A DNA stretch of 38,375 nucleotides from a virus. The notes beneath the pieces were generated by a model that saw only the letters and a program-made list of their open reading frames with translations, did no database searches and was not told the DNA's origin. Below are positions 1-15,983 of the stretch, piece by piece. Made by a program: the position numbers and the translations under genes. Location of the stretch: IMG/VR virus record IMGVR_UViG_3300029130_000025; one strand, 5' to 3'. Every line of letters begins with the position of its first letter. Within the stretch, counting starts at the first letter, position 1.

Positions 1-99
1 AGCCGGTACTGTAACGATCGGCGGGGATACAGTCACGATAAAAGCCATCGACGGAAGCGTGACGTTGGACTGTGACACGCAGAATGCTTACAAGGGAGT
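1..99. repeat. 99-bp terminal direct repeat (copy 1), circular-assembly overlap
   Basis: Read by eye as identical to 38277..38375 (agccggtactgtaacgatcgg...caagggagt). Confidence 0.9.
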
Positions 100-223
100 G
101 GCAAATAAAAACGCATCGATCTATGCGCCAACCTTCCCACGGCTCACACGCGGAGATAATGTGGTGTCATGGACCGGCGGGGTGTCAAAGGTTGAGATTG
201 TACCAAGGTGGTGGACGATATGA
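1..223 (+). CDS. Distal tail protein (Dit), 3' part, continuing from 37795..38375 across the junction
   Basis: Frame starting at base 2 reads AGTVTIGGDTVTIKAIDGSVTLDCDTQNAYKGVANKNASIYAPTFPRLTRGDNVVSWTGGVSKVEIVPRWWTI*. TGA at 221..223 overlaps the next ATG (ATGA). Joined length is 705 nt, which is in frame. Confidence 0.7.
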   Translation, partial: AGTVTIGGDTVTIKAIDGSVTLDCDTQNAYKGVANKNASIYAPTFPRLTRGDNVVSWTGGVSKVEIVPRWWTI

Positions 224-1980: not shown

Positions 1981-2075
1981 ATGGAGTACCGGGCCTGAGC
2001 AGAAAACGGAAACGGTAGGCAGTTTTGCACGGTACAGAGGCCCCTTTGTGTAAAGGGGGCTGTCAGCTTTCGGGG

Positions 2076-2111
2076 CCCCGGCGAAGCCCAGCGTCAGCGG
2101 GTTCGCCGGGG
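2076..2111 (+). promoter_or_regulatory. GC-rich 10-bp stem-loop abutting the RBS of the receptor-binding protein gene
   Basis: ccccggcgaa (2076..2085) pairs with ttcgccgggg (2102..2111). A second hairpin is cccctt/aagggg at 2041..2058. Both lie inside an unusual 145-bp gap in the tail operon. Confidence 0.4.
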
Positions 2112-2125
2112 AGAGGAGGAGCAGA

Positions 2126-3553: not shown

Positions 3554-3565
3554 AGGGGGAAGCTT

Positions 3566-3838
3566 ATGATAATCCTGAATGAATCCATGGAAGAGATCAC
3601 CGAGTACGATGCCGCAAAGGGCAGCCTCACGGAGACTGTGCGCATCCGCCCGGATGCGGTGCCCATCGACAACGTGACCAAATTTGCTTATGCCGATGAG
3701 GACTATGAGGCCGTGATGATCTACACGCCATATGCGGCGGATGCTGCGCCCAGCACCGAGGACACCATACTGGAGCTGACGGCGGATCATGAGTACCGGC
3801 TGTGCATGCTGGAGCTGAATGGAGGTGAAACGTTATGA
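3566..3838 (+). CDS. Hypothetical tail-module protein (position of XkdW-type proteins)
   Basis: 90-aa ORF with RBS aaggggga. Its stop overlaps the next ATG (ATGA). No domain recognised. Confidence 0.5.
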   Translation: MIILNESMEEITEYDAAKGSLTETVRIRPDAVPIDNVTKFAYADEDYEAVMIYTPYAADAAPSTEDTILELTADHEYRLCMLELNGGETL

Positions 3839-3993
3839 CGAGTGTAAAAAATCTGTGCCTGCTGCTGATCTCGCGGGGGAAAACCGATGGGCTGCAGGAC
3901 AAAATGGACGCCTATCTGGCAGCTGACCGGCTGACCGCAGAAGAGTACACGGAGCTGGCAGAAAAGCTGGCGCAAAAGGAGGAAAACGCTTGA
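3835..3993 (+). CDS. XkdX-like small protein
   Basis: 52-aa ORF, not in the track: MTSVKNLCLLLISRGKTDGLQDKMDAYLAADRLTAEEYTELAEKLAQKEENA. The ...ITAEEY...L motif and its position before the lysis cassette fit the XkdX family. Both ends overlap neighbouring genes. Confidence 0.5.
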   Translation: MTSVKNLCLLLISRGKTDGLQDKMDAYLAADRLTAEEYTELAEKLAQKEENA

Positions 3994-4229
3994 GCGACGT
4001 TTTAAGCGCGGTTATCACGGCGGTTATCACCGGCGGTGTCACTCTGGTTGGCATCCTGATTTCCAACAGCAAAAGTCAGGCGGTCACGGAGACGAAAATT
4101 GACGAGCTGACCCGTGAGGTCAGGGAACACAACAATTTCGCACGGCGCGTGCCGGTGGTTGAGGAACAAATCAGGGTGATTAACCACCGAATCAAGGATT
4201 TAGAAGATGCAGAAAAACACAACGATTAA
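3990..4229 (+). CDS. XhlA-like membrane protein (lysis-associated)
   Basis: TTG start after aggagg. N-terminal TM segment (VLSAVITAVITGGVTLVGILI) followed by a coiled coil. It lies directly upstream of the holin. Confidence 0.5.
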   Translation: MSDVLSAVITAVITGGVTLVGILISNSKSQAVTETKIDELTREVREHNNFARRVPVVEEQIRVINHRIKDLEDAEKHND

Positions 4230-4242
4230 GGAGGGCAAAATC

Positions 4243-4506
4243 ATGGATTTCGGCATTGCGGGCGTGGCGGCTATCACCGTGCTCGCCTATCTGATCGGCC
4301 AGGGGGTTAAAGCCTCCGGGCTGGCTAACAAGTGGATCCCGGTTATTTGCGGAATTACGGGTCTGGTGCTTGGCATCACAGCTCTGTACATCATGCCGGA
4401 TTTCCCGGCGGACGATCCCATTACGGCGGCGGCGATCGGGGCTGTTTCTGGTTTTGCGGCCACCGGCATTAACCAAATTGCGAAGCAGGCCAAAAAGGAG
4501 GACTGA
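4243..4506 (+). CDS. Holin
   Basis: ATG at 4243 after aaggagg. The 87-aa product has three hydrophobic segments and a charged C-terminus (KQAKKED). It lies upstream of the endolysin. Confidence 0.7.
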   Translation: MDFGIAGVAAITVLAYLIGQGVKASGLANKWIPVICGITGLVLGITALYIMPDFPADDPITAAAIGAVSGFAATGINQIAKQAKKED

Positions 4507-4509
4507 CAT

Positions 4510-4689
4510 ATGAGCTACACACCTGAGATTATGGAGTCTATCAAGGCCATGGCCTACGGCGCTACTGACAACGACCTCGTGACCAACTGCGGCATGGATG
4601 CTGCTGAGGTGGCACGCATCCGCACGGAGTATGCCGCAGACATCGAGGCCCGGAGGGCCATTTTGAAGGAGGCCGGTTATAGTGGCTAA
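4510..4689 (+). CDS. Hypothetical small protein between holin and endolysin
   Basis: 59-aa ORF MSYTPEIMESIKAMAYGATDNDL...KEAGYSG. Its end overlaps the GTG start of the endolysin. Confidence 0.4.
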   Translation: MSYTPEIMESIKAMAYGATDNDLVTNCGMDAAEVARIRTEYAADIEARRAILKEAGYSG

Positions 4690-5704
4690 AATCATCGGCA
4701 TTGATGTTTCTGAGCATAACGGTGTGGTCAATTGGTCTGCGGCAAAAAAGGCCGGTATCGGATTCGCGGTAATCCGCACCGGCTATGGCACGAGCCATGT
4801 AGATAAACAGTTCGCGGCCAATATGGCAGGAGCTGCGGCGCAGGGTATTCCCATCGGCATCTATCATTTCTCCTACGCGCTGACCGCTGCAGGGGCAAAG
4901 CAGGAAGCCGACTATGTGATCAAGCTGCTGGCGGCCTATAAAAATCAAATTACGCTACCGGTGTTTTTTGATTTTGAATATGACACTGTTGATTACGCAA
5001 AAAAGCAGGGCGTGACGCTGGGCAAGGACGCATTTAATGCCCATACCGTGGCGTTTTGTGAGCGGATCAAGGCGGCGGGGTACACCCCCGGCACATACTA
5101 CAATCTGGACTATCTCCGCAAATATGTGGACATGGATCAAGTCGGCGGGTATGTACAGTGGTATGCCCAGTATTCCAGCACGGCCAGCGCGGCGGGGCAT
5201 GACATCTGGCAGTATTCCAGCAGCTACACCATTCCGGGCTGTTCCGGCAGGTTTGACGTCAATCTACTGGAAAACACGGCGCTGCTGGGGAAAAAATACA
5301 CCCTTGGCTGGCATCAGGACAGCAAGGGGTGGTGGTATGTGGATACCGAAACTACCTATTATAAGAGCCGCTGGGCGCAGATCGGCGGCGAATGGTACTA
5401 TTTTGACGAAAAGGGGTATATGTTGATGGATACATGGAAAGTGGACAGCACCGGCACTTATTATCTGGGAGAGGACGGCAAGATGATGACGAACCGGATC
5501 GTGGGACTGGGGGCAGACGGAAAGCTCCGGCCCATGGAGCGGTATTACCATCTGCTCTCCGATCTGCCGGACTACTACCGAAAGGAGATTGACCCCTTGA
5601 TCGCCGCCGGAAAGCTCAAGGGCAAGTCCGGCAAAGGAGAAAATCTGGTGCTGGATATGCCTGAAAGCACAGTGCGAGCTATGATCATATTTAATCGAGT
5701 GTAA
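4682..5704 (+). CDS. Endolysin: GH25 muramidase plus cell-wall-binding (choline-binding-like) repeats plus a C-terminal tail
   Basis: IIGIDVSEHNGVVNW...AVIRTGYG...FFDFEYD is a GH25 signature. Aromatic repeats follow: GWWYVD..., GGEWYYFDEKGYMLMDTW, GTYYLGEDGKMMTN. Confidence 0.9.
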   Translation: MAKIIGIDVSEHNGVVNWSAAKKAGIGFAVIRTGYGTSHVDKQFAANMAGAAAQGIPIGIYHFSYALTAAGAKQEADYVIKLLAAYKNQITLPVFFDFEYDTVDYAKKQGVTLGKDAFNAHTVAFCERIKAAGYTPGTYYNLDYLRKYVDMDQVGGYVQWYAQYSSTASAAGHDIWQYSSSYTIPGCSGRFDVNLLENTALLGKKYTLGWHQDSKGWWYVDTETTYYKSRWAQIGGEWYYFDEKGYMLMDTWKVDSTGTYYLGEDGKMMTNRIVGLGADGKLRPMERYYHLLSDLPDYYRKEIDPLIAAGKLKGKSGKGENLVLDMPESTVRAMIIFNRV

Positions 5705-5716
5705 TTGGAGGTAAAA

Positions 5717-5914
5717 ATGCAGATCAAAGACTACACAAAGCCGGAATTAGATAGATTTAGAAGTTTATGTAATTTTACAGACACGGAAATGGCGTTTTTT
5801 GATCTAAGGGCAAGCGGGGCTACGCTGGATGAATGCTGCGGAGAATTGGATTATTCCATGGGTGGAATCTGCAGAATTTCCGGGAAGGTAAAAAAGAAAA
5901 TAAACAGGATTTAG
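5717..5914 (+). CDS. Small sigma-70 region-4 / LuxR-type HTH-like protein
   Basis: ATG after ggagg. FTDTEMAFFDLRASGATLDECCGELDYSMGGICRISGKVKKKI resembles a region-4 HTH. Confidence 0.4.
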   Translation: MQIKDYTKPELDRFRSLCNFTDTEMAFFDLRASGATLDECCGELDYSMGGICRISGKVKKKINRI

Positions 5915-5920
5915 GAAAAT

Positions 5921-5950
5921 AGCGCTACCGTTTGGTAGCGCTATTTTTGT
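5921..5950. terminator. Bidirectional intrinsic terminator between the convergent lysis and moron operons
   Basis: agcgctacc-gttt-ggtagcgct is followed by atttttg on + and by attttcc on the - strand. Confidence 0.8.
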
Positions 5951-5966
5951 CTGCCAGCGGATACCA

Positions 5967-6152
5967 TTATCCGCTCAGCATCGTGTGTTCCACGGCGATC
6001 CGCAGGAGGTTGATCAAGTATGGCGGAGGGTTCCGCTCACCGCCCTCCCATTTTTGCAGTGTGCGTGGATAGATTCCAAACGCTGCGGCAAATTTAACCT
6101 GAGACAGTCCGGTGCTGGCCCGGATGGATTTGATCTGTTCAGCTGGGGTCAT
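5967..6152 (-). CDS. XRE-family HTH protein, last gene of the moron operon (Aca-like / antitoxin-like autoregulator candidate)
   Basis: MTPAEQIKSIRASTGLSQVKFAAAFGIYPRTLQKWEGGERNPPPYLINLL is a classic XRE HTH. I prefer the ATG at 6152 (aggaggtg 8 nt upstream) over the GTG at 6161 used by the track. Confidence 0.75.
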   Translation of the reverse strand: MTPAEQIKSIRASTGLSQVKFAAAFGIYPRTLQKWEGGERNPPPYLINLLRIAVEHTMLSG

Positions 6153-6167
6153 TTTGCGCACCTCCTG

Positions 6168-6548
6168 TTATGCCCACATATCCGGGGCGATAATCTTACG
6201 GCCATCTTTTAACGTGTACACATAGCCTTCATATTCAAAATCGTCCAGCTGCTCTAAAAACAGCCGTGGAAGGTCTCCATCCTCATCATATATGATGTCC
6301 AAATCCGTTCCCGCTTCTCCATCCTCCAACCAGATTCGGCCGGGAATTACGGTGCGGATGTCCTTAACCGCTGCCTCGGTCACATCCTCAAACACGTCAT
6401 CGGCCTCAGGCCACGGCATTGGGAGGCCGAGTGGGCTGAGTACCGGGATTTGGTTGTCATCACAATTCCCCCAGTTAAACACGCCGACGGTGTTGCCGCT
6501 GTAAACGATGATTCCTGCCTCGTGGTTAGTTAATTCCATTAGTGTCAT
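6168..6548 (-). CDS. Hypothetical, extremely acidic 126-aa protein
   Basis: RBS aggagg lies 7 nt upstream. By my count there are 27 D/E against 7 K/R. No domain recognised. Confidence 0.7.
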   Translation of the reverse strand: MTLMELTNHEAGIIVYSGNTVGVFNWGNCDDNQIPVLSPLGLPMPWPEADDVFEDVTEAAVKDIRTVIPGRIWLEDGEAGTDLDIIYDEDGDLPRLFLEQLDDFEYEGYVYTLKDGRKIIAPDMWA

Positions 6549-6594
6549 TTTGATTTCCTCCTATTGATGGTCTACGTTTTGATGTCCTGCTATA

Positions 6595-6942
6595 TCATTT
6601 GATTACTGCAACAACGACTGCATGGCTGATAATGACCTCCTGCGGGTCGTTTCCATATCCCTCGCCCTCTCCGGCGATCAGATACATGTGTGCGCCGTCA
6701 TAGTCCTGCTGACGCGCCAGCGCCTTGCGCACCTCATCAATGTCATCCTCGTCATACCAGAGGTAGCCAAAGCCGGTAGCGCAGGTGCCTGGGAGATAGG
6801 TTTCTTCTGTGTTTTCCCAGTACAGATCACGGGAGCACCCGAGCTCGTCCCCAACATTGAGCACACGGTCATCCGTGCGGAGGCCATACACACAGTATTT
6901 GTTGTTGTTCTCGATCAGCGCATTCAAAACCAGCTCTTCCAT
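6595..6942 (-). CDS. Hypothetical, strongly acidic 115-aa protein
   Basis: RBS ggggga upstream. By my count there are 23 D/E against 8 K/R. It is the first gene behind a consensus promoter. Confidence 0.7.
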   Translation of the reverse strand: MEELVLNALIENNNKYCVYGLRTDDRVLNVGDELGCSRDLYWENTEETYLPGTCATGFGYLWYDEDDIDEVRKALARQQDYDGAHMYLIAGEGEGYGNDPQEVIISHAVVVAVIK

Positions 6943-6973
6943 TTTTGGATCCCCCTTGTTATTAACTGTCTAT

Positions 6974-7002
6974 ATTATACCGCCCAATGGGCAGTATGTC
7001 AA
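6974..7002 (-). promoter_or_regulatory. Consensus sigma-A promoter of the moron operon, with a palindrome in the spacer
   Basis: The minus strand reads TTGACA (7002..6997), a 17-nt spacer, then TATAAT (6979..6974). The spacer contains GCCCA-N-TGGGC. An A-tract-rich UP-like sequence lies upstream. Confidence 0.75.
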
Positions 7003-7038
7003 GCCTTTTTTCGAGATTTTTTGAATATTTTTTGAGCA

Positions 7039-7066
7039 ATATCTGCGCATTCCGGTTGGCAGATAT
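7039..7066. promoter_or_regulatory. Inverted repeat upstream of the accessory operon
   Basis: atatctgc (7039..7046) and gcagatat (7059..7066) are 8-bp arms with a 12-nt spacer. The repeat lies about 35 nt upstream of the first gene's ATG. Confidence 0.4.
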
Positions 7067-7098
7067 ACGCGCTAACATTAAATCAGGAGGTGAGCAAT

Positions 7099-7473
7099 AT
7101 GGCCTATGGATATATGCCGTATGGCAATCAATATGGTGGCTATACAGGGTATGGCAACCAGTATGGCGGATACAACCAACAGCCACAGCGTACAGAGGTG
7201 ATCCACGTAAACGGCCAGAATGGAGCACAGGCGCTCCAAATGGCTCCAAATAGCAGCGCTATCGTGATGGATGATACTGCACCGCTGATTTGGCTCTGTC
7301 AGACCGACGGAGCCGGTTACAAAACGGTTAGAGCATTTGATATAGCTCCACACCAGGACGCACAGACGGCATCTGTCGGTGATTTGGAAAACCGAATTAA
7401 ACGATTGGAGGAAATTGTAAATGGTAAATCCGCTGAACCAGTTTCTGCCGCAAAGCCAAAACCGGCCAAATAA
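7099..7473 (+). CDS. Hypothetical protein with a Tyr/Gly/Gln/Asn-rich N-terminal low-complexity region
   Basis: ATG lies 8 nt after caggagg. The product starts MAYGYMPYGNQYGGYTGYGNQYGGYNQQPQ, continues as a globular region and ends in a coiled segment with a Lys/Pro/Ala tail. Confidence 0.65.
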   Translation: MAYGYMPYGNQYGGYTGYGNQYGGYNQQPQRTEVIHVNGQNGAQALQMAPNSSAIVMDDTAPLIWLCQTDGAGYKTVRAFDIAPHQDAQTASVGDLENRIKRLEEIVNGKSAEPVSAAKPKPAK

Positions 7474-7636
7474 CCCAATATCTATGATTTCCAAATTCCG
7501 CGAATTTGCAGCAGGAATGACGCCAGACAGCGCACGGAAACAGGTGGAGCAGCTACTAGCCTCTGGGCAAATGTCGCAGGAGCAATTTAATCAGCTCAAA
7601 TCGCAAGCGCAAGAATTTTCGAAATTTTTGAAATAA
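7421..7636 (+). CDS. Hypothetical small Gln-rich protein, overlapping the 3' end of the previous gene out of frame (alternative start 7484)
   Basis: ATG 7421 is preceded by ggagga at 9 nt, whereas ATG 7484 has no SD. Product: ...GMTPDSARKQVEQLLASGQMSQEQFNQLKSQAQEFSKFLK. Confidence 0.5.
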   Translation: MVNPLNQFLPQSQNRPNNPISMISKFREFAAGMTPDSARKQVEQLLASGQMSQEQFNQLKSQAQEFSKFLK

Positions 7637-7679
7637 CCCCGGTGCGCAACGGGATTATATAAATTACAAAAGGAGTGAT

Positions 7680-8318
7680 ATGATGGAAAATTATTCTCTG
7701 TCCGATCTCGCGGCTGTGACCAAGGACGCTGACGGAATGGCTGGTAACGGTGCATGGTGGATCATCATCCTGTTTCTGTTTGTCATCATGGGCGGAGGTT
7801 GGAGTGGGTTTAACCGCCAGGGAGAGTATGGACAGTACGCCACGGCGGCATCCCAGCAGGAGATCCTTTATGGACAGCAGTTTGGCCAGATCAATGACCG
7901 GCTGACAAATCTCGGCAACGGAATCTGCAACCTCGGGTATGAGATGCAGGGCAATATCGGGCAGCTCGGCAAGGAGGTCGCACTGGCGCAGGCTGGCACC
8001 AACACCACAATCATGCAGACCGGGAATGCCATCCAGTCTCAGATTGCTCAGTGCTGCTGCGAGAATCGGCTGGCCACCGCAAACCTGTCCGCACAAATTG
8101 ACCGGCAGACCTGCGACATCACTACGGCGATCCACGCCGAGGGTGAGCAGACCAGGGCACTGATGCAGGCAAACGAGATCCAGAGCCTGCGGGATAAGGT
8201 CTCTGCTCTGGAGGCTGACAACCGCATGTATGGTGTGGTTCGCTATCCCAACGGCTACACTTACACCGCCGGGCCTTCCCCGTTCTGCGGCTGCAATAGC
8301 GGCTGCGGGTGTGCATAA
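7680..8318 (+). CDS. Membrane protein with Q/N/G-rich coiled region, CCC motif and Cys-rich C-terminus
   Basis: RBS aaaggag. TM segment AWWIIILFLFVIMGGGW. It contains QCCCENRL...RQTCDIT and ends FCGCNSGCGCA. Confidence 0.7.
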   Translation: MMENYSLSDLAAVTKDADGMAGNGAWWIIILFLFVIMGGGWSGFNRQGEYGQYATAASQQEILYGQQFGQINDRLTNLGNGICNLGYEMQGNIGQLGKEVALAQAGTNTTIMQTGNAIQSQIAQCCCENRLATANLSAQIDRQTCDITTAIHAEGEQTRALMQANEIQSLRDKVSALEADNRMYGVVRYPNGYTYTAGPSPFCGCNSGCGCA

Positions 8319-8349
8319 CAACGTTCAAAAACCGCTCTAACAGCGATAA

Positions 8350-8373
8350 GCCCGGGGCGGATTTGCCCCGGGC
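8350..8373 (+). terminator. Stem-loop (weak terminator or processing site) inside the accessory operon
   Basis: gcccgggg-cggatttg-ccccgggc is followed by atttctg. Confidence 0.4.
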
Positions 8374-8393
8374 ATTTCTGAAAGGAGAACAAT

Positions 8394-8834
8394 ATGAGCT
8401 GCAACAGAAATCTTAAAAATCCCCACTATAAGAGCGCCCAGAACGCTTATAACGACGCATCACAGGCGTTTGTTGCCACCGGCACCCCCGTATCCGTGCT
8501 GGGCGTGCTCAACACTGATACCGGATGCTCTGTGGATACAGTCACAGGGGGCTTCCGGATCAACGCCTCTGGACTTTACCGCGTATCCTATGACGTGACC
8601 TTCACACCGTCAGCTGCTGGCGTGGCGGTGCTCCAGGGACTCAAGGACACGGCAACGCTCCCTTGCCTCAATGCGCAGGAAACGGTAGCCGCTGGCTCTG
8701 TGTACACGCTCCACGCAGAGACTACAATATATGTCCCAGTGTGCTGCAATGGCGCTCCAACAATCAGCGCGACGCTCGGCGGTGTAGCAGGCACGGTTTC
8801 CCATGTATGCGCAAGCGCCGTAAAGCTGGCGTGA
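8394..8834 (+). CDS. BclA C-terminal / C1q-TNF-like jelly-roll domain protein without a collagen stalk
   Basis: RBS aaaggag. FRINASGLYRVSYDVTF...VYTLHAETTIYV...SAVKLA resembles, from memory, the BclA C-terminal domain (FVISETGFYKITV...SIIIEKVA). Confidence 0.55.
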   Translation: MSCNRNLKNPHYKSAQNAYNDASQAFVATGTPVSVLGVLNTDTGCSVDTVTGGFRINASGLYRVSYDVTFTPSAAGVAVLQGLKDTATLPCLNAQETVAAGSVYTLHAETTIYVPVCCNGAPTISATLGGVAGTVSHVCASAVKLA

Positions 8835-8844
8835 GGTGATCGCC

Positions 8845-9321
8845 ATGAAATCCAAATTGAGCGAGTATAAATCCAAGTTGGAGCACGAATTGGCGGAATA
8901 CCTCGATCAGCCAATCGGGACTAGATCCATGGCCGCCGTTGATGCTATGATTGAGTGCTGGGAACACGTTAATGACATGGAACATTGTGTATGCCATAGT
9001 GAGAAGCTGGACGATCAAGCATTGGAGACATGGAATGCCAACATGAAAAACGATGATGGTAGCACCGGTGGACATTGGACAGTAGCCCAGACCACCGACG
9101 CGGCAAAAACCGCAGGGGTAGTAATGGAGCACATTACACCGAATGGATGGAATGCCGCCATGAATATGATGTACTCGGACTATTGCAGCGTGGCAACAAA
9201 GCACGGATGCAACAAGGTAGAGTTTTACGCCGACCTCGCAAAGGCGTTTTTGTTTGACAAGGACGGCCCGGGGCCGGAAGCCAAACTGGCAGCATACTAT
9301 CATGGGATTGTCGTGGGATAA
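8845..9321 (+). CDS. Conserved hypothetical phage protein
   Basis: ATG 8845 lies 6 nt after gaggtg (the track uses GTG 8836). Motifs NMKNDDGSTGGHWTVAQT and MNMMYSDY. No function recognised. Confidence 0.6.
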   Translation: MKSKLSEYKSKLEHELAEYLDQPIGTRSMAAVDAMIECWEHVNDMEHCVCHSEKLDDQALETWNANMKNDDGSTGGHWTVAQTTDAAKTAGVVMEHITPNGWNAAMNMMYSDYCSVATKHGCNKVEFYADLAKAFLFDKDGPGPEAKLAAYYHGIVVG

Positions 9322-9323
9322 GT

Positions 9324-9343
9324 GCTAACGATTACGCTAACAA
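9324..9343 (+). repeat. attP arm repeat gctaacgatt-N-gctaacaa (copy 1), candidate arm-type integrase site
   Basis: gctaacgattacgctaacaa. A near-identical copy, gctaacgatttgctaacaa, lies at 9576..9594 on the other side of the tRNA core. Confidence 0.5.
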
Positions 9344-9367
9344 TAGACTGTATTTTTGCCTGATTCA

Positions 9368-9417
9368 GCATGATCCTGCATGATTCCTCGTGGATTTTCA
9401 AAGCACAGATTTTCAAA
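9368..9417 (+). repeat. Short tandem direct repeats in the attP arm
   Basis: gcatgatcc / gcatgattcc at 9368..9387, and gattttcaaa twice (9393..9402 and 9408..9417). Confidence 0.45.
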
Positions 9418-9433
9418 CAAATACAGTAAAAAA

Positions 9434-9475
9434 GTACCGCATTTACACAAAACCAAGTGCAAATGCGGTACTTTT
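9434..9475. terminator. Bidirectional intrinsic terminator (ends the accessory operon on +; follows the tRNA 3' end on -)
   Basis: gtaccgcattt (9434..9444) pairs with aaatgcggtac (9461..9471). tttt follows on +, and tttttt follows on the - strand. Confidence 0.7.
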
Positions 9476-9538
9476 GGCGCGGAAGGAGGGATTTGAACCC
9501 TCGCGCCGGTTTCCCGGCCTACTCCCTTAGCAGGGGTG
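9475..9538 (-). other. attP core: 3' ~60 nt of a tRNA-Ser(GCU) gene (anticodon loop to CCA), not a complete tRNA
   Basis: The reverse complement reads cacccCTGCTAAgggag-taggccgggaaaccggcgc-gagggTTCAAATccctc-cttccgc-g-CCA. That gives anticodon loop CU-GCU-AA, a long variable arm, a T arm and the acceptor 3' strand. There is no 5' acceptor strand or D arm upstream. Confidence 0.75.
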
Positions 9539-9575
9539 AAAAAATCGTTGCAATTACAAGAAAAATTCGGGATAT

Positions 9576-9599: not shown

Positions 9600-10706
9600 C
9601 TACTCAGACGTTGCCGCCATCTGATTTACGGCGGCATGAGAAGCGGCGGTATCTGGATGGATATAGCGCTGTGTCGTTGTAAATTTGGTGTGGCGCATAA
9701 CCTCCTGAATTACGGACGGTGCAATATTGCCCAGAGCCAGCGCAGTTGCGGTGGTGTGGCGGCAGGAGTACGGCGGGAGGTCTCTGCATCCGGCATTTTT
9801 TACAGCTCTATGATATTCCAGATAGAACTTGTCACGATCCATGCAGAGGACGTAATCTTTCCGGCTCTTTGAGTAATCGCAGAGTTCGTGGAGCACGGGA
9901 GCGACGGACTGTGGAAATACCATGACCGTTTCCTTCCGCTTTCTGGTTTTGAGGCCAGCCCCCCGAATTTCACACTTGTTAAAATCTATCATATCCTTTT
10001 TCAGGATGAATAGTTCCCCCGGCATCATGCCCGTGTAGATCATCAGCAGGATGTAGCCCACAAACGTATCACCGGCGGTGTATGCCGCCCAGAATAGTTT
10101 AATCTCGTCCTCGGTGTACGGGGTCATCTCTTTTTCATCCAGCGGCGGTAGCTCAATATATTCCGCCAGATTTGCCCGGAGATGGCCCTCTGCAACGGCC
10201 ATTTTCAGGAGGTGGGACGCTACGGTTTTCATATCCCGTGCGGGGTAGTATGTGGAGGTCTCAGTGTCCACCTGTCCCTGCAAATCTCCAATGGATAGCT
10301 CGGTTATGGGTTTGTCGTATAGGCCCTCCCAACGCTTCCAAGCGATCTCATAGGCCGTTTGCTTAGATTTTCCAAGCTTGGTAAATGCAGATGAGTGCCA
10401 TGTTTTATGGTACTCGCGGAGTGTAGGCACTTTTACGACAGTTTCCGGAGGGCATGACGCATAGGCCAGCGCGGCCTTTTTTGTGGCAAATCCGCCCTTC
10501 CATTTCCGGGGATAATGGACTTTACCATCATCACCGATATAGCGCGGGGCAGACCATACGGCTGTCCACGTTTTCCCTCGCTTGATGGCCGTCCCCTGTC
10601 CGTTTCCACGGCTTTTTACGCTTGTGGTTACAGTTAATTTAGCCCCGCACTTTGGGCAGAAATTAGCCCCCTCCGGTGCCTCTGAATGGCATTTCCTGCA
10701 TTGCAT
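9600..10706 (-). CDS. int: Tyrosine integrase with an N-terminal zinc-ribbon
   Basis: MQCRKCHSEAPEGANFCPKCGAKL is a CxxC...CxxC ribbon. The C-terminus has ...YSCRHTTATALAL...VMRHTKFTTTQRYIH (R..H..R..Y catalytic pattern). It is adjacent to attP. Confidence 0.9.
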   Translation of the reverse strand: MQCRKCHSEAPEGANFCPKCGAKLTVTTSVKSRGNGQGTAIKRGKTWTAVWSAPRYIGDDGKVHYPRKWKGGFATKKAALAYASCPPETVVKVPTLREYHKTWHSSAFTKLGKSKQTAYEIAWKRWEGLYDKPITELSIGDLQGQVDTETSTYYPARDMKTVASHLLKMAVAEGHLRANLAEYIELPPLDEKEMTPYTEDEIKLFWAAYTAGDTFVGYILLMIYTGMMPGELFILKKDMIDFNKCEIRGAGLKTRKRKETVMVFPQSVAPVLHELCDYSKSRKDYVLCMDRDKFYLEYHRAVKNAGCRDLPPYSCRHTTATALALGNIAPSVIQEVMRHTKFTTTQRYIHPDTAASHAAVNQMAATSE

Positions 10707-10841: not shown

Positions 10842-11354
10842 TTACTCAAACGCTCCGATCCCGGGATGCAACATATCCCAGATCATATAAGCAATCAGTC
10901 CGGCGGCAACTAGGACAAGAAGAACGGTTGCAGCTGCCGCCCATAAAATCATGATCTTTATGGTTCTGGATTTGCGTTTTATTTCCGCTTGCTGCTCCTC
11001 AATGGTGGTCTGCATCCGGTCTATCTGGGCGGATCGTGCATCAATTCCGCGCTGGCGCTCCCGGTCTGCGTCTTCTCTGACTGCCAGAAGCGCCCGAAGC
11101 GCTGCTATATCCTCCGGTGGCGTTACATCCGGGTTGTAGCCGTCACCGATTACGGCGCGCGCCACGGCTTGCAGGGTGGATACGCGGAATTCCTCGGCTC
11201 TTTCATCGTCCGCAGTAAAAATCCGGCGCACGGAAGACATGGAAACCGGTTCGCCGGCAAGTTCACACGCGTCTACGATATTCTGGTAGGTAAGCCCCTT
11301 TTGCTCCCGCATGACTTTTAGCTGACGGATCAGGGCTATCTGATTTCTGCTCAC
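10842..11354 (-). CDS. HTH (XRE-like) - coiled-coil - C-terminal TM anchor protein
   Basis: GTG 11354 lies 8 nt after agaggag (the track starts at TTG 11408). LTYQNIVDACELAGEPVSMSSVRRIF is the HTH. RERQRGIDARSAQIDRMQTTIEEQQAEIKRK is the coiled coil. IMILWAAAATVLLVLVAAGLIAYMIW is the TM segment. Confidence 0.65.
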   Translation of the reverse strand: MSRNQIALIRQLKVMREQKGLTYQNIVDACELAGEPVSMSSVRRIFTADDERAEEFRVSTLQAVARAVIGDGYNPDVTPPEDIAALRALLAVREDADRERQRGIDARSAQIDRMQTTIEEQQAEIKRKSRTIKIMILWAAAATVLLVLVAAGLIAYMIWDMLHPGIGAFE

Positions 11355-11416
11355 GTTATCATCTCCTCTGGCAATTTTTGAGCCGCAAAGAGCATCAAAA
11401 GAACACAAAAATGGTA

Positions 11417-11574: not shown

Positions 11575-11682
11575 ATGAATGCGTACAAAGAGGAAATCAA
11601 GCGATTAGTTGATACGTGCGAAAATGAGCGGAGCCTGTGGTTGATCTTACGGTTTATCCAGCTGAGGCTTTCGGTTGAATAG
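11575..11682 (+). CDS. 35-aa micro-ORF
   Basis: RBS ctggagg. Product MNAYKEEIKRLVDTCENERSLWLILRFIQLRLSVE. A terminator follows. Confidence 0.35.
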   Translation: MNAYKEEIKRLVDTCENERSLWLILRFIQLRLSVE

Positions 11683-11688
11683 TTAAAA

Positions 11689-11714
11689 GGAGCGGGAATC
11701 CCGCTCCTTTTTTT
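11689..11714. terminator. Bidirectional intrinsic terminator
   Basis: ggagcggg-aat-cccgctcc is followed by ttttttt on +. An A-tract on the other side serves the minus-strand SLH-Ltp gene. Confidence 0.8.
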
Positions 11715-11719
11715 ACGGG

Positions 11720-12799
11720 TTACTGGTAGGTTTGATTGGCGGCGTAAACCGCCTGGTCGTAGGTAAACCCTTCAAACTCCAGCTGGGACACCAGTCCGTC
11801 ATAAGAAAAGGACGTGTAATCAAGATAATCCTTCGCTTTCTTCACAGCCTGCTCATACCAGTCTGCCCCACAATTGTCAGCGCCATAGACAGCTTGATCG
11901 TGCGTGAACTTGGAATACTCCAGTTGCTCAATCAGGCCGGTATAAGAAAAAGATGAACTCCGCAAATAGCTCTGTGCTTTTTTTAGTGCCTGTTCATACC
12001 AATCTGCACCACAATTGTCTGAAGCATAGGTCGCATCCTCCGTCGAATACCCCTCATATTCCAGCTGCTCAATCAGGCCAGTCCGGGAAAATGCAGATAC
12101 ACGCAAGTAGGATTTTGCCCGTTCCAGTGCATTCTTCTGGGACTGTGTGGGGTCCGTAGGAGTTGCAGAAGGCTGGATCTGCTGCACGAGGCGAACCAGC
12201 ACCGCAGTGCCTTCGATGCGCGTCATATTTTTCTTCGGGTTGAAATTGCCGTTGTTGTCACCATTTACGATCCCAAGGGTACGGAGCAGCTCAACACTGG
12301 GCTGTGCATATCCAGAGATCGCAGAAGCATCCTGAAAGCCGTCTGCAATCTTATCTCCTGCGGCAACGTTCAGACCGAGATTACCGATGGCACGGCCAAC
12401 GATGGTTGCCATGTCCTGACGAGTGATGGGGGAATTGGGGGAAAAGGTCGTATCGCCGGTGCCGTTAATAATGCCGTTATCAACGCCCCAGTAGAGGTAC
12501 GGGATATAGTAGGCGCTATTGTCTACATCGGCAAACTTATATGTATTGGTTCCGCTGCCGGCCATAGCACGGCCAAAGACCGCAATAAACTGGGAACGTG
12601 TCATGGTATCATAGGGCGCAAAGGTGGTAGCAGATTTACCATTGACCATTGAGTGATCCACGGCATAGGTCAATGTATCGCCATACCATGCATCCAGATT
12701 TACATCCGTAAAATCGCTTGCCGATGCGGCAAATACGGACGTGGTGAGCATCAACACTGTAAGCAGCGCCGATGTGATTTTTGCCAGTTGCTTTTTCAT
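11720..12799 (-). CDS. Secreted SLH-anchored protein with three Ltp (host cell surface-exposed lipoprotein, PF07553-type) repeats; candidate superinfection-exclusion protein
   Basis: Signal peptide MKKQLAKITSALLTVLMLTTSVFAASA. Three SLH-like units follow (FTDV...W..., FADVDNSAYY..., FQDASAISGYA...). Then come three repeats ALxxAKSYL..S.FS..GLI.QLE...F....A.Y.....GADW, matching the TP-J34 Ltp repeat as I remember it. Confidence 0.8.
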   Translation of the reverse strand: MKKQLAKITSALLTVLMLTTSVFAASASDFTDVNLDAWYGDTLTYAVDHSMVNGKSATTFAPYDTMTRSQFIAVFGRAMAGSGTNTYKFADVDNSAYYIPYLYWGVDNGIINGTGDTTFSPNSPITRQDMATIVGRAIGNLGLNVAAGDKIADGFQDASAISGYAQPSVELLRTLGIVNGDNNGNFNPKKNMTRIEGTAVLVRLVQQIQPSATPTDPTQSQKNALERAKSYLRVSAFSRTGLIEQLEYEGYSTEDATYASDNCGADWYEQALKKAQSYLRSSSFSYTGLIEQLEYSKFTHDQAVYGADNCGADWYEQAVKKAKDYLDYTSFSYDGLVSQLEFEGFTYDQAVYAANQTYQ

Positions 12800-12851
12800 A
12801 GGGATTTCCTCCTTTTATTTTACACCTTACAGTGTAGATTACATTAAAACC

Positions 12852-12880
12852 ATCATACTATTCAGGCAAGCGATTTTCAA
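12852..12880 (-). promoter_or_regulatory. Candidate own promoter of the SLH-Ltp gene
   Basis: The minus strand reads TTGAAA (12880..12875), a 17-nt spacer, then TATGAT (12857..12852). It lies downstream of the repressor terminator. Confidence 0.4.
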
Positions 12881-12910: not shown

Positions 12911-12941
12911 GCAAAAGGAGCAGGGGGGAAGCCCCTACTCC
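12911..12941 (-). terminator. Intrinsic terminator of the repressor gene, overlapping its stop codon
   Basis: The minus strand reads ggagtagggg-cttcc-cccctgctcc, a 10-bp stem with one G-U pair, followed by ttttgc. Confidence 0.7.
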
Positions 12942-13318
12942 TTTCCTTTTGTCAACTCAACAACCAATTGTGCCATGGCCTGCCAGCTTGCTTCCGATAA
13001 TTTCGACAATTTGTAAACAAACTGCCGACGGAATGATTCCGGTTCGTCCTGTAATACGTCGTTGAAGAACTCCATGATTTCCTCATCCTTGGACTTTTTA
13101 ACGTACATATCGCCCTCACCGGTACGGAGCCAATGCTCCGACACGCCGAAGACTCGGCAAATAGACAGGACGGTCTGGTTGGATGGGTTTGTTTTCCCGT
13201 TCTCAATGTTTGACAGTGCTGTTGGCGTAATGCCTATTTTGTCCCCAAGCTGTTGCAAGGTCATTCCGGCGCTTTTCCTGATTTTTTTTATCCTTGCGTT
13301 TATGGTATCACCTCCCAT
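12935..13318 (-). CDS. CI-like repressor (XRE HTH, no S24 peptidase domain)
   Basis: INARIKKIRKSAGMTLQQLGDKIGITPTALSNIENGKTNPSNQTVLSICRVFGVSEHWL. It is divergent from the early operon. Confidence 0.8.
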   Translation of the reverse strand: MGGDTINARIKKIRKSAGMTLQQLGDKIGITPTALSNIENGKTNPSNQTVLSICRVFGVSEHWLRTGEGDMYVKKSKDEEIMEFFNDVLQDEPESFRRQFVYKLSKLSEASWQAMAQLVVELTKGKE

Positions 13319-15384: not shown

Positions 15385-15627
15385 ATGGCAAACAGTGTAA
15401 AGCTCAAAACTCGGTATGAAAGGCCGAGCTGCGTAGTGCACATCAACCCGGAAGCGGTGAAGGTGCTGGACAAACTGGAAAAGGTCACCGGGCAGCCACG
15501 TTCTTATCTTGCAAGCCAGCTTATTATTCAGGGCAGTCAGTTCATTGAGTTCTGCCCTGAGGAATGCGACGGCTGCGAGTTCAGGGAGCGGTGTGACAAG
15601 ATCAGCTATGAGAGGAGAAATTCATAA
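15385..15627 (+). CDS. Hypothetical protein (possible ribbon-helix-helix; Cys cluster at the C-terminus)
   Basis: ATG 15385 lies 7 nt after aaggagg. Product ...VLDKLEKVTGQPRSYLASQLII...CPEECDGCEFRERC. Confidence 0.5.
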   Translation: MANSVKLKTRYERPSCVVHINPEAVKVLDKLEKVTGQPRSYLASQLIIQGSQFIEFCPEECDGCEFRERCDKISYERRNS

Positions 15628-15983
15628 TGGCAACAGCATCTGAGCTGCTGATAGAGCTTGGCGTCAATGTCAGCTCCAAGGGAGGCCGGCAGTTGACACG
15701 CTGCGTGGAGCTTGCTGCCGATGACCCGACGCTGACGGACTCCATTGTAAAGGTACTATACCCAATGGTTGCAGATGCCTCCGGAACATCCGCCAAGGCA
15801 ACGGAGCGAATTATCATCCGGGAGCTGCGACTGGTCACTGGGTATCCAAGCTGGGGCGACAGGCTTGCATCGTTTGAGTCCCGGCATGGATGCAAAGGCC
15901 TATTCTCAGGCTACGAACATCAGACGTTAAAGCCGTTCATCCAGAAAGTCGCCTACATATTAAACAAGGAGAGACCGAGATGA
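15627..15983 (+). CDS. Spo0A C-terminal (DNA-binding effector) domain-like protein without a receiver domain
   Basis: ELGVNVSSKGGRQL...IVKVLYPMVADASGTSAKATERIIIRELR...LFSGYEHQTLKPFIQKVAYIL aligns by eye with B. subtilis Spo0A-C (EIGVPAHIKGYLYL...[29 protein letters not shown]...LFGYT...KPTNSEFIAMVADKL). Confidence 0.65.
   Translation: MATASELLIELGVNVSSKGGRQLTRCVELAADDPTLTDSIVKVLYPMVADASGTSAKATERIIIRELRLVTGYPSWGDRLASFESRHGCKGLFSGYEHQTLKPFIQKVAYILNKERPR

What the first reader, a model, noticed from the sequence alone, without database searches (positions are those of the whole stretch)
11720..12799. Ltp-type superinfection exclusion domains re-anchored by SLH domains and triplicated
What the sequence shows: a Sec signal peptide without a lipobox Cys, three SLH-like modules, a Pro/Thr/Gln linker, then three tandem copies of the repeat AL..AK.YL....FS..GLI.QLE...F....A.Y.....GADW.

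Established knowledge: this repeat defines the Ltp family (PF07553). In Streptococcus phage TP-J34, Ltp is a lipoprotein with two repeats. It blocks DNA injection by targeting the tape measure protein of incoming phages.

Inference: here the exclusion module is tethered to the cell wall by SLH domains instead of a lipid anchor, and it has three repeats. The gene has its own candidate promoter and terminator next to the repressor. It also indicates a host with an SLH-binding secondary cell-wall polymer.
Basis: partly seen in the sequence, partly recalled or inferred. Interest (0 to 1): 0.65.

Follow-up and report, generated by a model that had tools for sequence, protein, structure and literature searches.

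The report
Wall-anchored Ltp phage-exclusion protein
A temperate gut phage carries a secreted protein that joins a cell-wall anchor (three SLH domains) to three copies of the Ltp module, which in a dairy phage blocks DNA injection by rival phages; the architecture is real but is a recurrent, so far undescribed, variant of a known family, not a one-off.

Summary
ORF 11720..12799 (-) encodes a 359-aa protein with these parts:
- a signal peptide with no lipobox Cys;
- three SLH domains (Pfam E 4.5e-32);
- a 14-residue Pro/Thr/Gln linker;
- three Ltp repeats (Pfam E 9e-40).

An AlphaFold model (pLDDT 86) superposes on the Sap and SpaA SLH trimers and on TP-J34 Ltp (rmsd 1.0 Å).

The window is a complete circular temperate siphophage genome. 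The gene sits between the integrase and the CI-like repressor, as ltp does in TP-J34. It has its own promoter, ribosome-binding site (RBS) and flanking terminator hairpins.

It is not unique:
- 24 of the top 120 database clusters share SLH+Ltp.
- About ten 50%-identity representative clusters are full length.
- The gene lies in the lysogeny module of five other phage backbones.
- Homologues commonly have 3–6 Ltp repeats.
- Ltp repeats are also fused to CWB2, PG_binding_1, Flg_new and choline-binding anchors (CbpL).

The SLH module is a portable cassette. It is 95% identical at nucleotide level to a gene in another phage that carries a different C-terminal cargo.

The most likely function is superinfection exclusion in the wall zone. 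This is inferred, not shown. I found no paper describing SLH–Ltp. I rate it a new variant of a known kind, of moderate interest.

The parts
11720..12799 (-). Complete CDS of the SLH-Ltp protein (359 aa plus stop codon)
   Evidence: ORF list. Pfam SLH x3 and Lipoprotein_Ltp x3. The identical protein is called on 7 contigs.
12719..12799 (-). Signal peptide, aa 1-27. Lys-rich n-region, hydrophobic core, then VFA/ASA signal peptidase I-type sites. No Cys, so no lipobox.
   Evidence: Hydropathy and Cys positions. pLDDT below 50 for aa 1-21. The cleavage site is my reading of the sequence.
12182..12718 (-). Three SLH domains, aa 28-206. HMM cores at aa 30-71, 89-130 and 155-196. Motifs: SMVNG..TRSQ, GIING..TRQD, GIVNG..TRIE.
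   Evidence: Pfam E 4.5e-32. PDB sequence hits to Sap SLH 3pyw, 6bt4 and 9g93. Foldseek TM 0.78-0.79 to 3pyw and 6bt4, plus SpaA-SLH. The Gly and Arg of each module are invariant in 19 homologues. Their ligand-binding role is described in PMC6081394.
12140..12181 (-). Flexible Pro/Thr/Gln linker QIQPSATPTDPTQS, aa 207-220. It is also the recombination breakpoint of the SLH cassette.
   Evidence: pLDDT below 50 at aa 211-213. Linker length varies roughly five-fold among homologues. Nucleotide homology to L111 stops at 12171.
12002..12139 (-). Ltp repeat 1, aa 221-266
   Evidence: Repeat HMM E 4e-26. Three helices in the model.
11861..12001 (-). Ltp repeat 2, aa 267-313
   Evidence: Repeat HMM E 3e-30. 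Repeats 2 and 3 align to TP-J34 Ltp 4eqq: sequence E 2e-9, Foldseek rmsd 1.0 Å over 90 columns.
11723..11860 (-). Ltp repeat 3, aa 314-359. It lacks the inter-repeat NCGADW motif because it is the last repeat.
   Evidence: Repeat HMM E 2e-24. Alignment A1.
12852..12880 (-). Candidate sigma-70-type promoter TTGAAA-17 nt-TATGAT, about 52 nt upstream of the ATG
   Evidence: Consensus scan, 10 of 12 matches. This is a consensus match only; transcription was not shown.
12808..12812 (-). Ribosome-binding site GGAGG, 8 nt before the ATG
   Evidence: Read directly from the sequence.
12913..12945 (-). Terminator-like hairpin at the end of the repressor gene. It separates repressor and ltp transcription.
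   Evidence: RNAfold -24.7 kcal/mol, followed by TTTT.
11685..11711 (.). GC-rich hairpin just after the ltp stop codon, flanked by an A-run and a T-run. It could act in both directions, and it also closes the convergent 35-aa ORF at 11575..11682 (+).
   Evidence: RNAfold -20.1 kcal/mol. Sequence. The simple terminator scan did not list it.
12935..13318 (-). CI-like HTH_3 repressor, the upstream neighbour in the lysogeny module
   Evidence: Pfam HTH_3 E 9e-19. PHROG transcriptional repressor families.
9600..10706 (-). Tyrosine integrase with an N-terminal zinc ribbon, at the downstream end of the lysogeny module
   Evidence: Pfam Phage_integrase E 6e-17. PHROG 1 integrase E 1e-38.

Best explanation
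The gene encodes a secreted Ltp-family protein that is not a lipoprotein. A temperate siphophage expresses it from its lysogeny module as a self-contained transcription unit.

Proposed mechanism:
1. The protein is exported by Sec and the signal peptide is cleaved by signal peptidase I.
2. The three SLH domains fold into the usual pseudo-trimer and bind a pyruvylated secondary cell-wall polymer. This holds the protein non-covalently in the peptidoglycan layer of the lysogen.
3. A short flexible linker presents an acidic rod of three Ltp three-helix units (pI 4.5).
4. By analogy with TP-J34 Ltp, these units intercept the tape measure protein or tail tip of an incoming siphophage as it crosses the wall. 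DNA entry is blocked after adsorption, which is superinfection exclusion.

Shown here:
- the architecture and the fold;
- conservation of the ligand-binding residues;
- the genomic position and expression signals;
- recurrence of the gene in other temperate phages.

Inferred:
- wall localisation;
- expression during lysogeny;
- the exclusion activity and its target.
For: Domain identity and fold:
- Pfam, PHROG and PDB matches.
- AlphaFold model with pLDDT 86.2. It matches the Sap and SpaA SLH trimers solved with pyruvylated SCWP ligands, and TP-J34 Ltp at rmsd 1.0 Å.

Anchor and cargo properties:
- SLH-Gly29 and SLH-Arg43 equivalents are present in all three modules and invariant in 19 homologues. 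Their roles are described in PMC6081394.
- The Ltp region is acidic, like the family: pI 4.49, against a median of 4.43 over 119 proteins (PMC5137146).

Genomic setting:
- The synteny is the same as TP-J34: int - ltp - repressor (PMC3952083).
- The gene has its own promoter, RBS and flanking hairpins.
- Homologues at 38-47% identity lie beside CI/LexA-type repressors, and in most cases also the integrase, in five other phage backbones.
- The phage itself is a siphovirus with a 1338-aa tape measure protein.

Precedent from the literature:
- The lipid anchor is dispensable. Secreted UsLtp1 excludes all tested 936 and P335 phages to below 1e-9 (PMC3952083 Table 6).
- A wall-anchored protein that blocks DNA injection exists: CwpV (PMC4737114).
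Against: - No experiment on this protein or on any SLH-Ltp protein was found.
- Even for TP-J34, direct Ltp-TMP binding has not been demonstrated (PMC4737114).
- The one studied wall-anchored Ltp-domain protein, CbpL, is host-encoded and linked to virulence, not to phage defence.
- The host, and therefore the presence of a pyruvylated SCWP, could not be identified.
- The Ltp half is more conserved across the family (52-64%) than the SLH half (30-38%). Excess variation in Ltp among close relatives is not significant, p = 0.08. There is therefore no clear arms-race signature.
- One homologue, in Planococcus, is chromosomal with no obvious prophage around it.
Confidence: 0.6

Rival explanations
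1. Lysogenic-conversion surface protein that benefits the host in ways unrelated to phages. The Ltp rod would bind a host or environmental ligand, for adhesion, immune evasion or wall organisation, as proposed for the Ltp domain of pneumococcal CbpL.
For: CbpL is a wall-anchored, non-lipoprotein Ltp-domain protein with virulence phenotypes, and its authors propose protein-protein interactions with host factors (PMC5137146). The Planococcus homologue lies outside any recognisable prophage. The Ltp half is strongly conserved across distant hosts, which fits a conserved ligand.
Against: In six independent phage backbones the gene sits in the lysogeny module, usually between repressor and integrase, which is the classic place for exclusion genes. 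Sequence and fold are closest to the experimentally validated exclusion protein. The role of the CbpL Ltp domain itself was never resolved.
Confidence: 0.15
2. Adsorption block instead of injection block. The SLH-anchored protein would coat or compete for the pyruvylated wall polymer or S-layer sites that incoming phages use as receptors, so that superinfecting phages cannot bind.
For: SLH trimers occupy SCWP sites in the wall (PMC6081394). The same SLH cassette is exchanged between phages with different cargos, which could mean the anchor itself matters.
Against: The Ltp repeats are the most conserved part of the protein. In TP-J34 they are the active exclusion domain, acting after adsorption. 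An SLH trimer alone would suffice for receptor masking, yet three to five Ltp repeats are always kept in the full-length subfamily.
Confidence: 0.12
3. A lytic-cycle or structural accessory, for example a wall-targeting factor that helps lysis or virion release, and not a lysogeny-expressed gene.
For: PHROG hits for the SLH part include endolysins and tail proteins that carry SLH domains. SLH-bearing endolysins exist (PMC12285257).
Against: No catalytic domain was detected. The gene is on the lysogeny strand, next to the repressor and apart from the lysis cassette at 4-6 kb. That cassette has its own GH25 endolysin with choline-binding repeats. The gene also has its own promoter and terminators.
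Confidence: 0.04

Closest known systems
Ltp of Streptococcus thermophilus phage TP-J34 (PF07553; PDB 4eqq)
   Same: Same repeat family: Pfam E 9e-40, 37% identity, Foldseek rmsd 1.0 Å over two repeats. Both have tandem three-helix units and an acidic surface. Both have the layout secretion signal - spacer - repeats. Both genes lie between integrase and repressor of a temperate siphophage.
   Different: The window protein has no lipobox or lipid anchor. It has three SLH domains instead. It has three repeats, not two. Its linker is Pro/Thr/Gln-rich, not Ser-rich. At 359 aa it is much longer than the 142-aa Ltp. Its predicted location is the wall polymer layer, not the outer face of the membrane. 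Its function is untested.
CbpL of Streptococcus pneumoniae (choline-binding protein with a C-terminal Ltp domain)
   Same: An Ltp domain without a lipobox, held non-covalently on a wall polymer by a repeat-type anchor and joined through a disordered linker (PMC5137146).
   Different: The anchor is a choline-binding module on teichoic acid, not SLH on a pyruvylated SCWP. CbpL has a single Ltp repeat and an extra Excalibur domain. It is chromosomal and host-encoded, and was studied for virulence, not phage exclusion.
CwpV of Clostridioides difficile
   Same: It works in a similar way. It is a wall-anchored surface protein (CWB2 x3 anchor) whose C-terminal repeats block siphophage DNA injection after adsorption (PMC4737114). 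A direct CWB2 x3 + Ltp x4 fusion also exists among the homologues: P0037.
   Different: There is no sequence relationship between the CwpV repeats and Ltp. CwpV is host-encoded and phase-variable, and its anchor is CWB2, not SLH.
SLH-anchored surface proteins (B. anthracis Sap, P. alvei SpaA; PF00395)
   Same: N-terminal signal peptide followed by three SLH domains forming a pseudo-trimer. The GIIxG Gly and the TRAE-type Arg are conserved in every module. The closest cellular scaffolds, at about 50% identity, are on GH5 cellulases.
   Different: The cargo is a phage exclusion module, not an S-layer lattice domain or an enzyme. The gene is phage-borne.

Membership tests
Ltp family (PF07553, TP-J34-type superinfection exclusion proteins) | Sequence match to the Ltp repeat profile above the curated threshold | tested here: met
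   135 bits against a cut-off of 23.2, three stretches. PHROG 4980 E 5e-52.
Ltp family (PF07553, TP-J34-type superinfection exclusion proteins) | Tandem three-helix (HTH-like) repeat fold as in PDB 4eqq | tested here: met
   AlphaFold model with nine helices in aa 218-357. Foldseek to 4eqq_A gives TM 0.82 and rmsd 1.0 Å. This is a predicted structure, not a solved one.
Ltp family (PF07553, TP-J34-type superinfection exclusion proteins) | Acidic repeat domain | tested here: met
   pI 4.49 and charge -9 for aa 221-359. The criterion is taken from PMC5137146.
Ltp family (PF07553, TP-J34-type superinfection exclusion proteins) | N-terminal lipobox Cys and lipid anchoring to the membrane | tested here: not met
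   No Cys before residue 263. The protein belongs to the domain family but is not an Ltp lipoprotein in the strict sense.
Ltp family (PF07553, TP-J34-type superinfection exclusion proteins) | Encoded in the lysogeny module of a temperate phage, between integrase and repressor | tested here: met
   Integrase at 9600..10706, repressor at 12935..13318, all on the minus strand. TP-J34 gene order from PMC3952083.
Ltp family (PF07553, TP-J34-type superinfection exclusion proteins) | Transcribed in the prophage state | not testable with these tools
   Only a consensus promoter and terminator hairpins were found.
Ltp family (PF07553, TP-J34-type superinfection exclusion proteins) | Blocks DNA injection of superinfecting phages, with escape mutations in the tape measure protein | not testable with these tools
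   This needs phage challenge experiments.
SLH-domain cell-wall-anchored proteins (PF00395) | Three SLH modules matching the profile | tested here: met
   110 bits against a cut-off of 20.8, three stretches.
SLH-domain cell-wall-anchored proteins (PF00395) | Pseudo-threefold SLH trimer fold | tested here: met
   Foldseek to 3pyw and 6bt4 gives TM 0.78-0.79 over 178-182 columns, and the model also matches SpaA-SLH.
SLH-domain cell-wall-anchored proteins (PF00395) | Ligand-binding residues: SLH-Gly29 (GIIxG), SLH-Arg43 (TRAE motif) and SLH-Trp13 | tested here: met
   G54/R68, G113/R127 and G180/R194 are all present and invariant in 19 homologues. Trp is present in module 1 (W38) and replaced by Tyr in modules 2 and 3, by my reading of the alignment. 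The residue roles are described in PMC6081394.
SLH-domain cell-wall-anchored proteins (PF00395) | Host makes a pyruvylated secondary cell-wall polymer (CsaB-dependent), and the protein binds wall sacculi | not testable with these tools
   The host was not identified. The only indirect support is that scaffolds about 50% identical occur on GH5 cellulases.
CwpV-type wall-anchored exclusion proteins | CWB2 anchor and CwpV-type C-terminal repeats | tested here: not met
   Pfam finds no CW_binding_2 in the window protein. The resemblance is functional only.

The most novel reading that the evidence does not exclude
The SLH triple is a portable wall-display cassette that temperate phages of Clostridia exchange by recombination in the linker. 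It would be used to mount interchangeable anti-phage cargos in the wall of the lysogen: Ltp repeats, a small His/Cys-rich domain, or both. On this reading the Ltp family is not a family of membrane lipoproteins. It is an envelope-zone interceptor whose anchor is matched to each host's wall chemistry: lipid, SLH, CWB2, PG_binding_1 or choline-binding. The Cys-rich domain would then be a new exclusion effector.
Probability: 0.3. Interest if true: 0.55.

Novelty: new variant of a known kind. Interest (0 to 1): 0.35.

Why it matters
Ltp is one of the few Gram-positive superinfection-exclusion proteins with a solved structure and a proposed target. The literature treats it as a membrane lipoprotein, and the CbpL paper calls a non-lipid anchor unique in the family.

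The data here show that in gut Clostridia phages the same module is routinely hung on wall-binding anchors and usually has three or more repeats. If SLH-Ltp excludes phages, interception can happen inside the wall, before the tail reaches the membrane. That would fit the stronger and broader activity of secreted Ltp.

There are also two practical uses:
- SLH-Ltp marks phages whose hosts probably use SLH/SCWP anchoring.
- The 95%-identical SLH cassette with swapped cargo gives a natural experiment for separating anchor function from effector function.

The advance is incremental: a new architecture class within a known family, not a new mechanism.

Tried and rejected
Host identification failed in four ways:
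- A homology search with the host-flank FAD/Fer4 protein of the integrated copy L102 returned no organism names.
- A search with the SLH half alone returned only four unnamed hits.
- ARAGORN found no complete tRNA at the att junction.
It therefore mostly returned Ltp-only proteins, with full-length hits only in an Oscillospiraceae MAG and a Muricomes MAG.

Searches that found nothing useful:
- Deposited phage genomes (INPHARED): 144 records match only the Ltp part, and none covers 80% or more of the query.
- PADLOC has no model that hits the protein.
- Literature searches for SLH together with Ltp or superinfection exclusion, and for PF07553, found no description of this architecture.

Arms-race test:
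- Variable sites among 16 close relatives are enriched in repeat 2 (23% against 6.7% in SLH).
- SLH against Ltp overall is not significant (Fisher p = 0.08).
- At long range the Ltp half is the more conserved one. I make no such claim.

Other points:
- The His/Cys-rich alternative cargo has no Pfam hit and only a non-significant resemblance to the Ada N-terminal zinc domain (E 0.02).
- I rejected the idea that window 1..9500 is host flank. It holds tail, holin and endolysin genes of the same circular genome.
- I rejected recent triplication, because the repeats are only 45-61% identical in DNA.
Full report
**1. The observation**

The ORF is at 11720..12799 on the minus strand and encodes 359 aa.

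- Pfam gives Lipoprotein_Ltp (PF07553) at E 9.1e-40 and SLH (PF00395) at E 4.5e-32. Each has three matched stretches, and both are far above the curated cut-offs.
- PHROGs places the C-terminal part in two 'superinfection exclusion' families, at E 5e-52 and 5e-42.
- The N-terminus, MKKQLAKITSALLTVLMLTTSVFAASA, is a typical signal peptide.
- The only cysteines are C263 and C310, inside the repeats, so there is no lipobox.
- My repeat HMM places the Ltp units at aa 221-266, 267-313 and 314-359, and the SLH cores at aa 30-71, 89-130 and 155-196.
- The units are 37-59% identical in protein and 45-61% in DNA, so the multiplication is old.
- The linker QIQPSATPTDPTQS joins the two halves.

**2. Structure**

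- A sequence search of the PDB finds the B. anthracis Sap SLH trimer (3pyw, 6bt4, 9g93; E 4e-12 to 1e-10) for aa 29-211. It finds TP-J34 Ltp (4eqq; E 2e-9) for aa 268-354.
- An AlphaFold2 model built on 19 homologues has mean pLDDT 86.2. Only the signal peptide and aa 211-213 of the linker are of low confidence. Aa 218-357 form nine helices, that is three three-helix units.
- Foldseek against the PDB returns Sap SLH (TM 0.78-0.79, including 6bt4, the complex with a pyruvylated SCWP unit) and the P. alvei SpaA-SLH complexes.
- It also returns 4eqq at rmsd 1.0-1.2 Å over 90 columns (37% identity).
- The whole three-repeat rod resembles RecX only weakly.
- In SLH domains, the Gly of the GIIxG motif and the Arg of the TRAE motif contact the pyruvate of the wall polymer (PMC6081394).
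- The window protein has SMVNG..TRSQ, GIING..TRQD and GIVNG..TRIE. All three Gly and all three Arg are invariant in the 19-sequence alignment.
- The Ltp region is acidic: pI 4.49 and charge -9. The median pI over 119 Ltp-containing hits is 4.43.

**3. Context**

The window is an entire 38,375-bp metagenomic contig with an exact 99-bp repeat at its two ends, so it is a circular assembly. It is not a prophage with host flanks.

- The left 9.5 kb holds tail genes (Prophage_tail, BppU_N), a holin and a GH25 endolysin with choline-binding repeats.
- The right part holds terminase, portal, capsid, major tail protein and a 1338-aa tape measure protein.
- The lysogeny genes are all on the minus strand:
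  - integrase at 9600..10706;
  - an HTH-plus-transmembrane ORF at 10842..11408;
  - the SLH-Ltp gene;
  - an HTH_3 CI-like repressor at 12935..13318.
- This is the TP-J34 arrangement, int - ltp - orf3 - crh (PMC3952083).
- The gene looks like a separate unit. There is a -24.7 kcal/mol hairpin at the end of the repressor gene and a TTGAAA-17-TATGAT promoter match at 12880..12852. GGAGG lies 8 nt before the ATG, and a -20.1 kcal/mol hairpin at 11685..11711 follows the stop codon.
- Its GC content is slightly below that of the genome, 0.502 against 0.537.
- The same phage is found integrated in a 141-kb contig, L102. Homology to the circular form ends exactly at a tRNA-like 3' end, and host genes follow.

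**4. How common is it?**

- The homology search gave 4827 hits at E 1e-10 or better. Of the 120 best clusters, 24 carry both PF07553 and PF00395. By my own HMMs, 15 of these are SLH x3 + Ltp x3 and 5 are SLH x3 + Ltp x4.
- The cluster at 90% identity that holds the window protein has 120 member sequences on many contigs.
- An exhaustive phmmer search of 1.84 billion representatives found about ten 50%-identity clusters with full-length coverage among the top 150. It found 1450 representatives at E 1e-30 or better, mostly Ltp multi-repeat proteins.
- One homologue is a RefSeq protein of Planococcus kocurii, annotated only as 'S-layer homology domain-containing protein'.
- Species-representative genomes with the full architecture are an Oscillospiraceae MAG and a Muricomes MAG.
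- No deposited phage genome in INPHARED has it.
- I found no paper describing it.

**5. Contexts of homologues**

| Homologue | Identity to the window protein | Gene order |
|---|---|---|
| P0013 | 47% | HTH repressor - SLH-Ltp - Zn-ribbon ORF - serine recombinase; on contigs in 117 blocks of the collection |
| P0032 (Oscillospiraceae MAG) | 44% | HTH+Peptidase_S24 repressor - SLH-Ltp - serine recombinase - host trmD/rimM/ffh |
| P0008 | 48% | repressor - DUF4236 - SLH-Ltp - tyrosine integrase - host recJ/relA |
| P0027 | 44% | lysogeny-like module with HicB; no integrase on the contig |
| L084 (Muricomes) | 39% | LexA-like repressor - ORF - SLH-Ltp - ORF - integrase - host genes |

The gene is therefore a recurrent lysogeny-module moron (an add-on gene with its own expression signals) across unrelated backbones. 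The Planococcus copy is the exception: it is chromosomal and lies next to a UmuC/YolD pair.

**6. Neither feature is special within the family**

- Among the 120 best clusters, every Ltp-bearing protein has 3-6 repeats: 20 have three, 90 have four, 7 have five and 2 have six. The ranking favours proteins with many repeats.
- Only 31 clusters have a lipobox-like motif.
- Pfam coordinates show Ltp repeats C-terminal to several other N-terminal modules:
  - CWB2 x3 (P0037);
  - PG_binding_1 x3 or x1 (P0047, P0052);
  - Flg_new x3 (P0014);
  - Cu_amine_oxidN1 (P0043);
  - Zn-ribbon N-termini (P0061);
  - an Mrr nuclease domain (P0068).
- A wall-anchored Ltp domain that is not a lipoprotein has been published. 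Pneumococcal CbpL uses a choline-binding module, and its authors described this as unique in the family (PMC5137146).

**7. The SLH module is a cassette**

- P0003 and P0137 (278 aa) share the first ~215 residues with the window protein at 94-97% identity. They end in a ~55-residue His/Cys-rich domain in place of the Ltp repeats.
- At DNA level, window 12845..12171 is 95.4% identical to L111 1593-2267. The similarity starts 46 nt before the ATG, so it includes the ribosome-binding site. It stops at about codon 210, in the linker, with no similarity on either side.
- In L111 the gene lies in a different lysogeny module: HTH repressor - Peptidase_M78 - SLH protein - Bro-N - integrase.
- The same type of Cys-rich domain follows the Ltp repeats in P0007, P0028 and P0058.
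- The domain has no family assignment.
- The nearest other SLH scaffolds, at 46-53% identity, are N-terminal anchors of GH5 cellulases. This suggests a cellular origin and a host lineage that uses SLH anchoring.

**8. Mechanism**

Best-supported reading:
1. The protein is exported by Sec and cleaved by signal peptidase I.
2. The SLH trimer docks on a pyruvylated wall polymer.
3. The acidic Ltp rod, held on a short tether, intercepts the tape measure protein or tail tip of incoming siphophages inside the wall.

The key support from the literature:
- Lipid anchoring is not needed. Secreted UsLtp1 excluded every 936 and P335 phage tested to below 1e-9, a broader range than the lipoprotein (PMC3952083 Table 6).
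- CwpV shows that a wall-anchored protein can block DNA injection (PMC4737114).

The caveats:
- The Ltp-TMP interaction itself is inferred from escape mutants only.
- There is no clear diversifying signature in the Ltp half.
- The host is unidentified.
- Nothing has been tested experimentally.

Rival readings are kept at lower probability: a host-benefit surface protein like CbpL, an adsorption block by occupying the SCWP, and a lytic accessory.

**9. Verdict**

This is a member of a recurrent SLH-anchored subfamily of Ltp proteins that has not been characterised, within a family whose anchors are generally interchangeable. I rate it a new variant of a known kind, with interest 0.35. The most novel part is the evidence for an exchangeable SLH display cassette with alternative cargos.

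Noticed in passing
window 1-99 and 38277-38375: An exact 99-bp direct repeat at the two contig ends. The window is a complete, circularly assembled temperate siphophage genome of about 38.3 kb, and the tail and lysis genes at 1..9500 continue from the tape measure gene at the right end.
   Followed up: yes
window 9475..9540 (- strand); L102 13262-13327: attP carries the 3' part of a class-II tRNA: a long variable arm and the anticodon loop CTGCTAA, which I read as tRNA-Ser(GCU). Homology between the circular form and the integrated form stops exactly at the ...CCGCGCCA end. ARAGORN calls no full tRNA there.
   Followed up: partly
window 12171..12845 vs L111 1593-2267: The RBS + signal peptide + SLH x3 block is 95.4% identical in DNA to a gene in a different phage's lysogeny module. 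There the C-terminal cargo is a ~55-aa His/Cys-rich domain instead of Ltp repeats. The breakpoint lies in the linker.
   Followed up: yes
P0003/P0137/P0060 C-termini; P0007/P0028/P0058 C-termini: A small His/Cys-rich domain (…KYHxxxxCS…PCxRC…) either replaces the Ltp repeats or follows them on SLH scaffolds. It has no Pfam hit and only a non-significant resemblance to the Ada N-terminal zinc domain. Its function is unknown.
   Followed up: partly
window 15627..15983 (+): An early-region ORF of 118 aa with a Spo0A C-terminal-like DNA-binding domain (Pfam Spo0A_C on record; TIGR02875 E 1e-6). This hints at a spore-forming Firmicute host and possible interference with sporulation control.
   Followed up: no
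window 10842..11408 (-): A lysogeny-module ORF between the integrase and ltp with a weak N-terminal HTH, a coiled-coil stretch and a C-terminal transmembrane helix. It matches no family in Pfam, PHROGs, NCBIfam or PADLOC. Other contigs call it as 170 aa.
   Followed up: partly
window 11575..11682 (+): A 35-aa ORF that converges on ltp and shares the hairpin at 11685..11711. It is called as a gene in every related contig.
   Followed up: no
window 4682..5704 (+): The endolysin is GH25 plus choline-binding-type repeats. The same phage therefore uses two different wall-targeting modules: choline-binding repeats for lysis and SLH for the Ltp protein.
   Followed up: no
P0068 (563 aa), P0037 (520 aa): Unusual Ltp fusions. 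P0068 is an Mrr-type restriction endonuclease domain plus Ltp x4, a puzzling topology. P0037 is CWB2 x3 plus Ltp x4, a direct architectural parallel to C. difficile CwpV.
   Followed up: no
P0356, P0313: The closest SLH scaffolds outside the phage proteins, at 46-53% identity over aa 1-~220, are N-terminal anchors of GH5 cellulases. This suggests the phage cassette came from wall-anchored enzymes of fibrolytic Clostridia.
   Followed up: partly
aa 221-359 of the model m26b086dad7eb: The three-repeat Ltp rod resembles RecX, which is also built of three three-helix repeats (Foldseek E 0.036, TM 0.63). JGI annotates several Ltp proteins as 'OraA/RecX'. This is probably a source of misannotation.
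   Followed up: no
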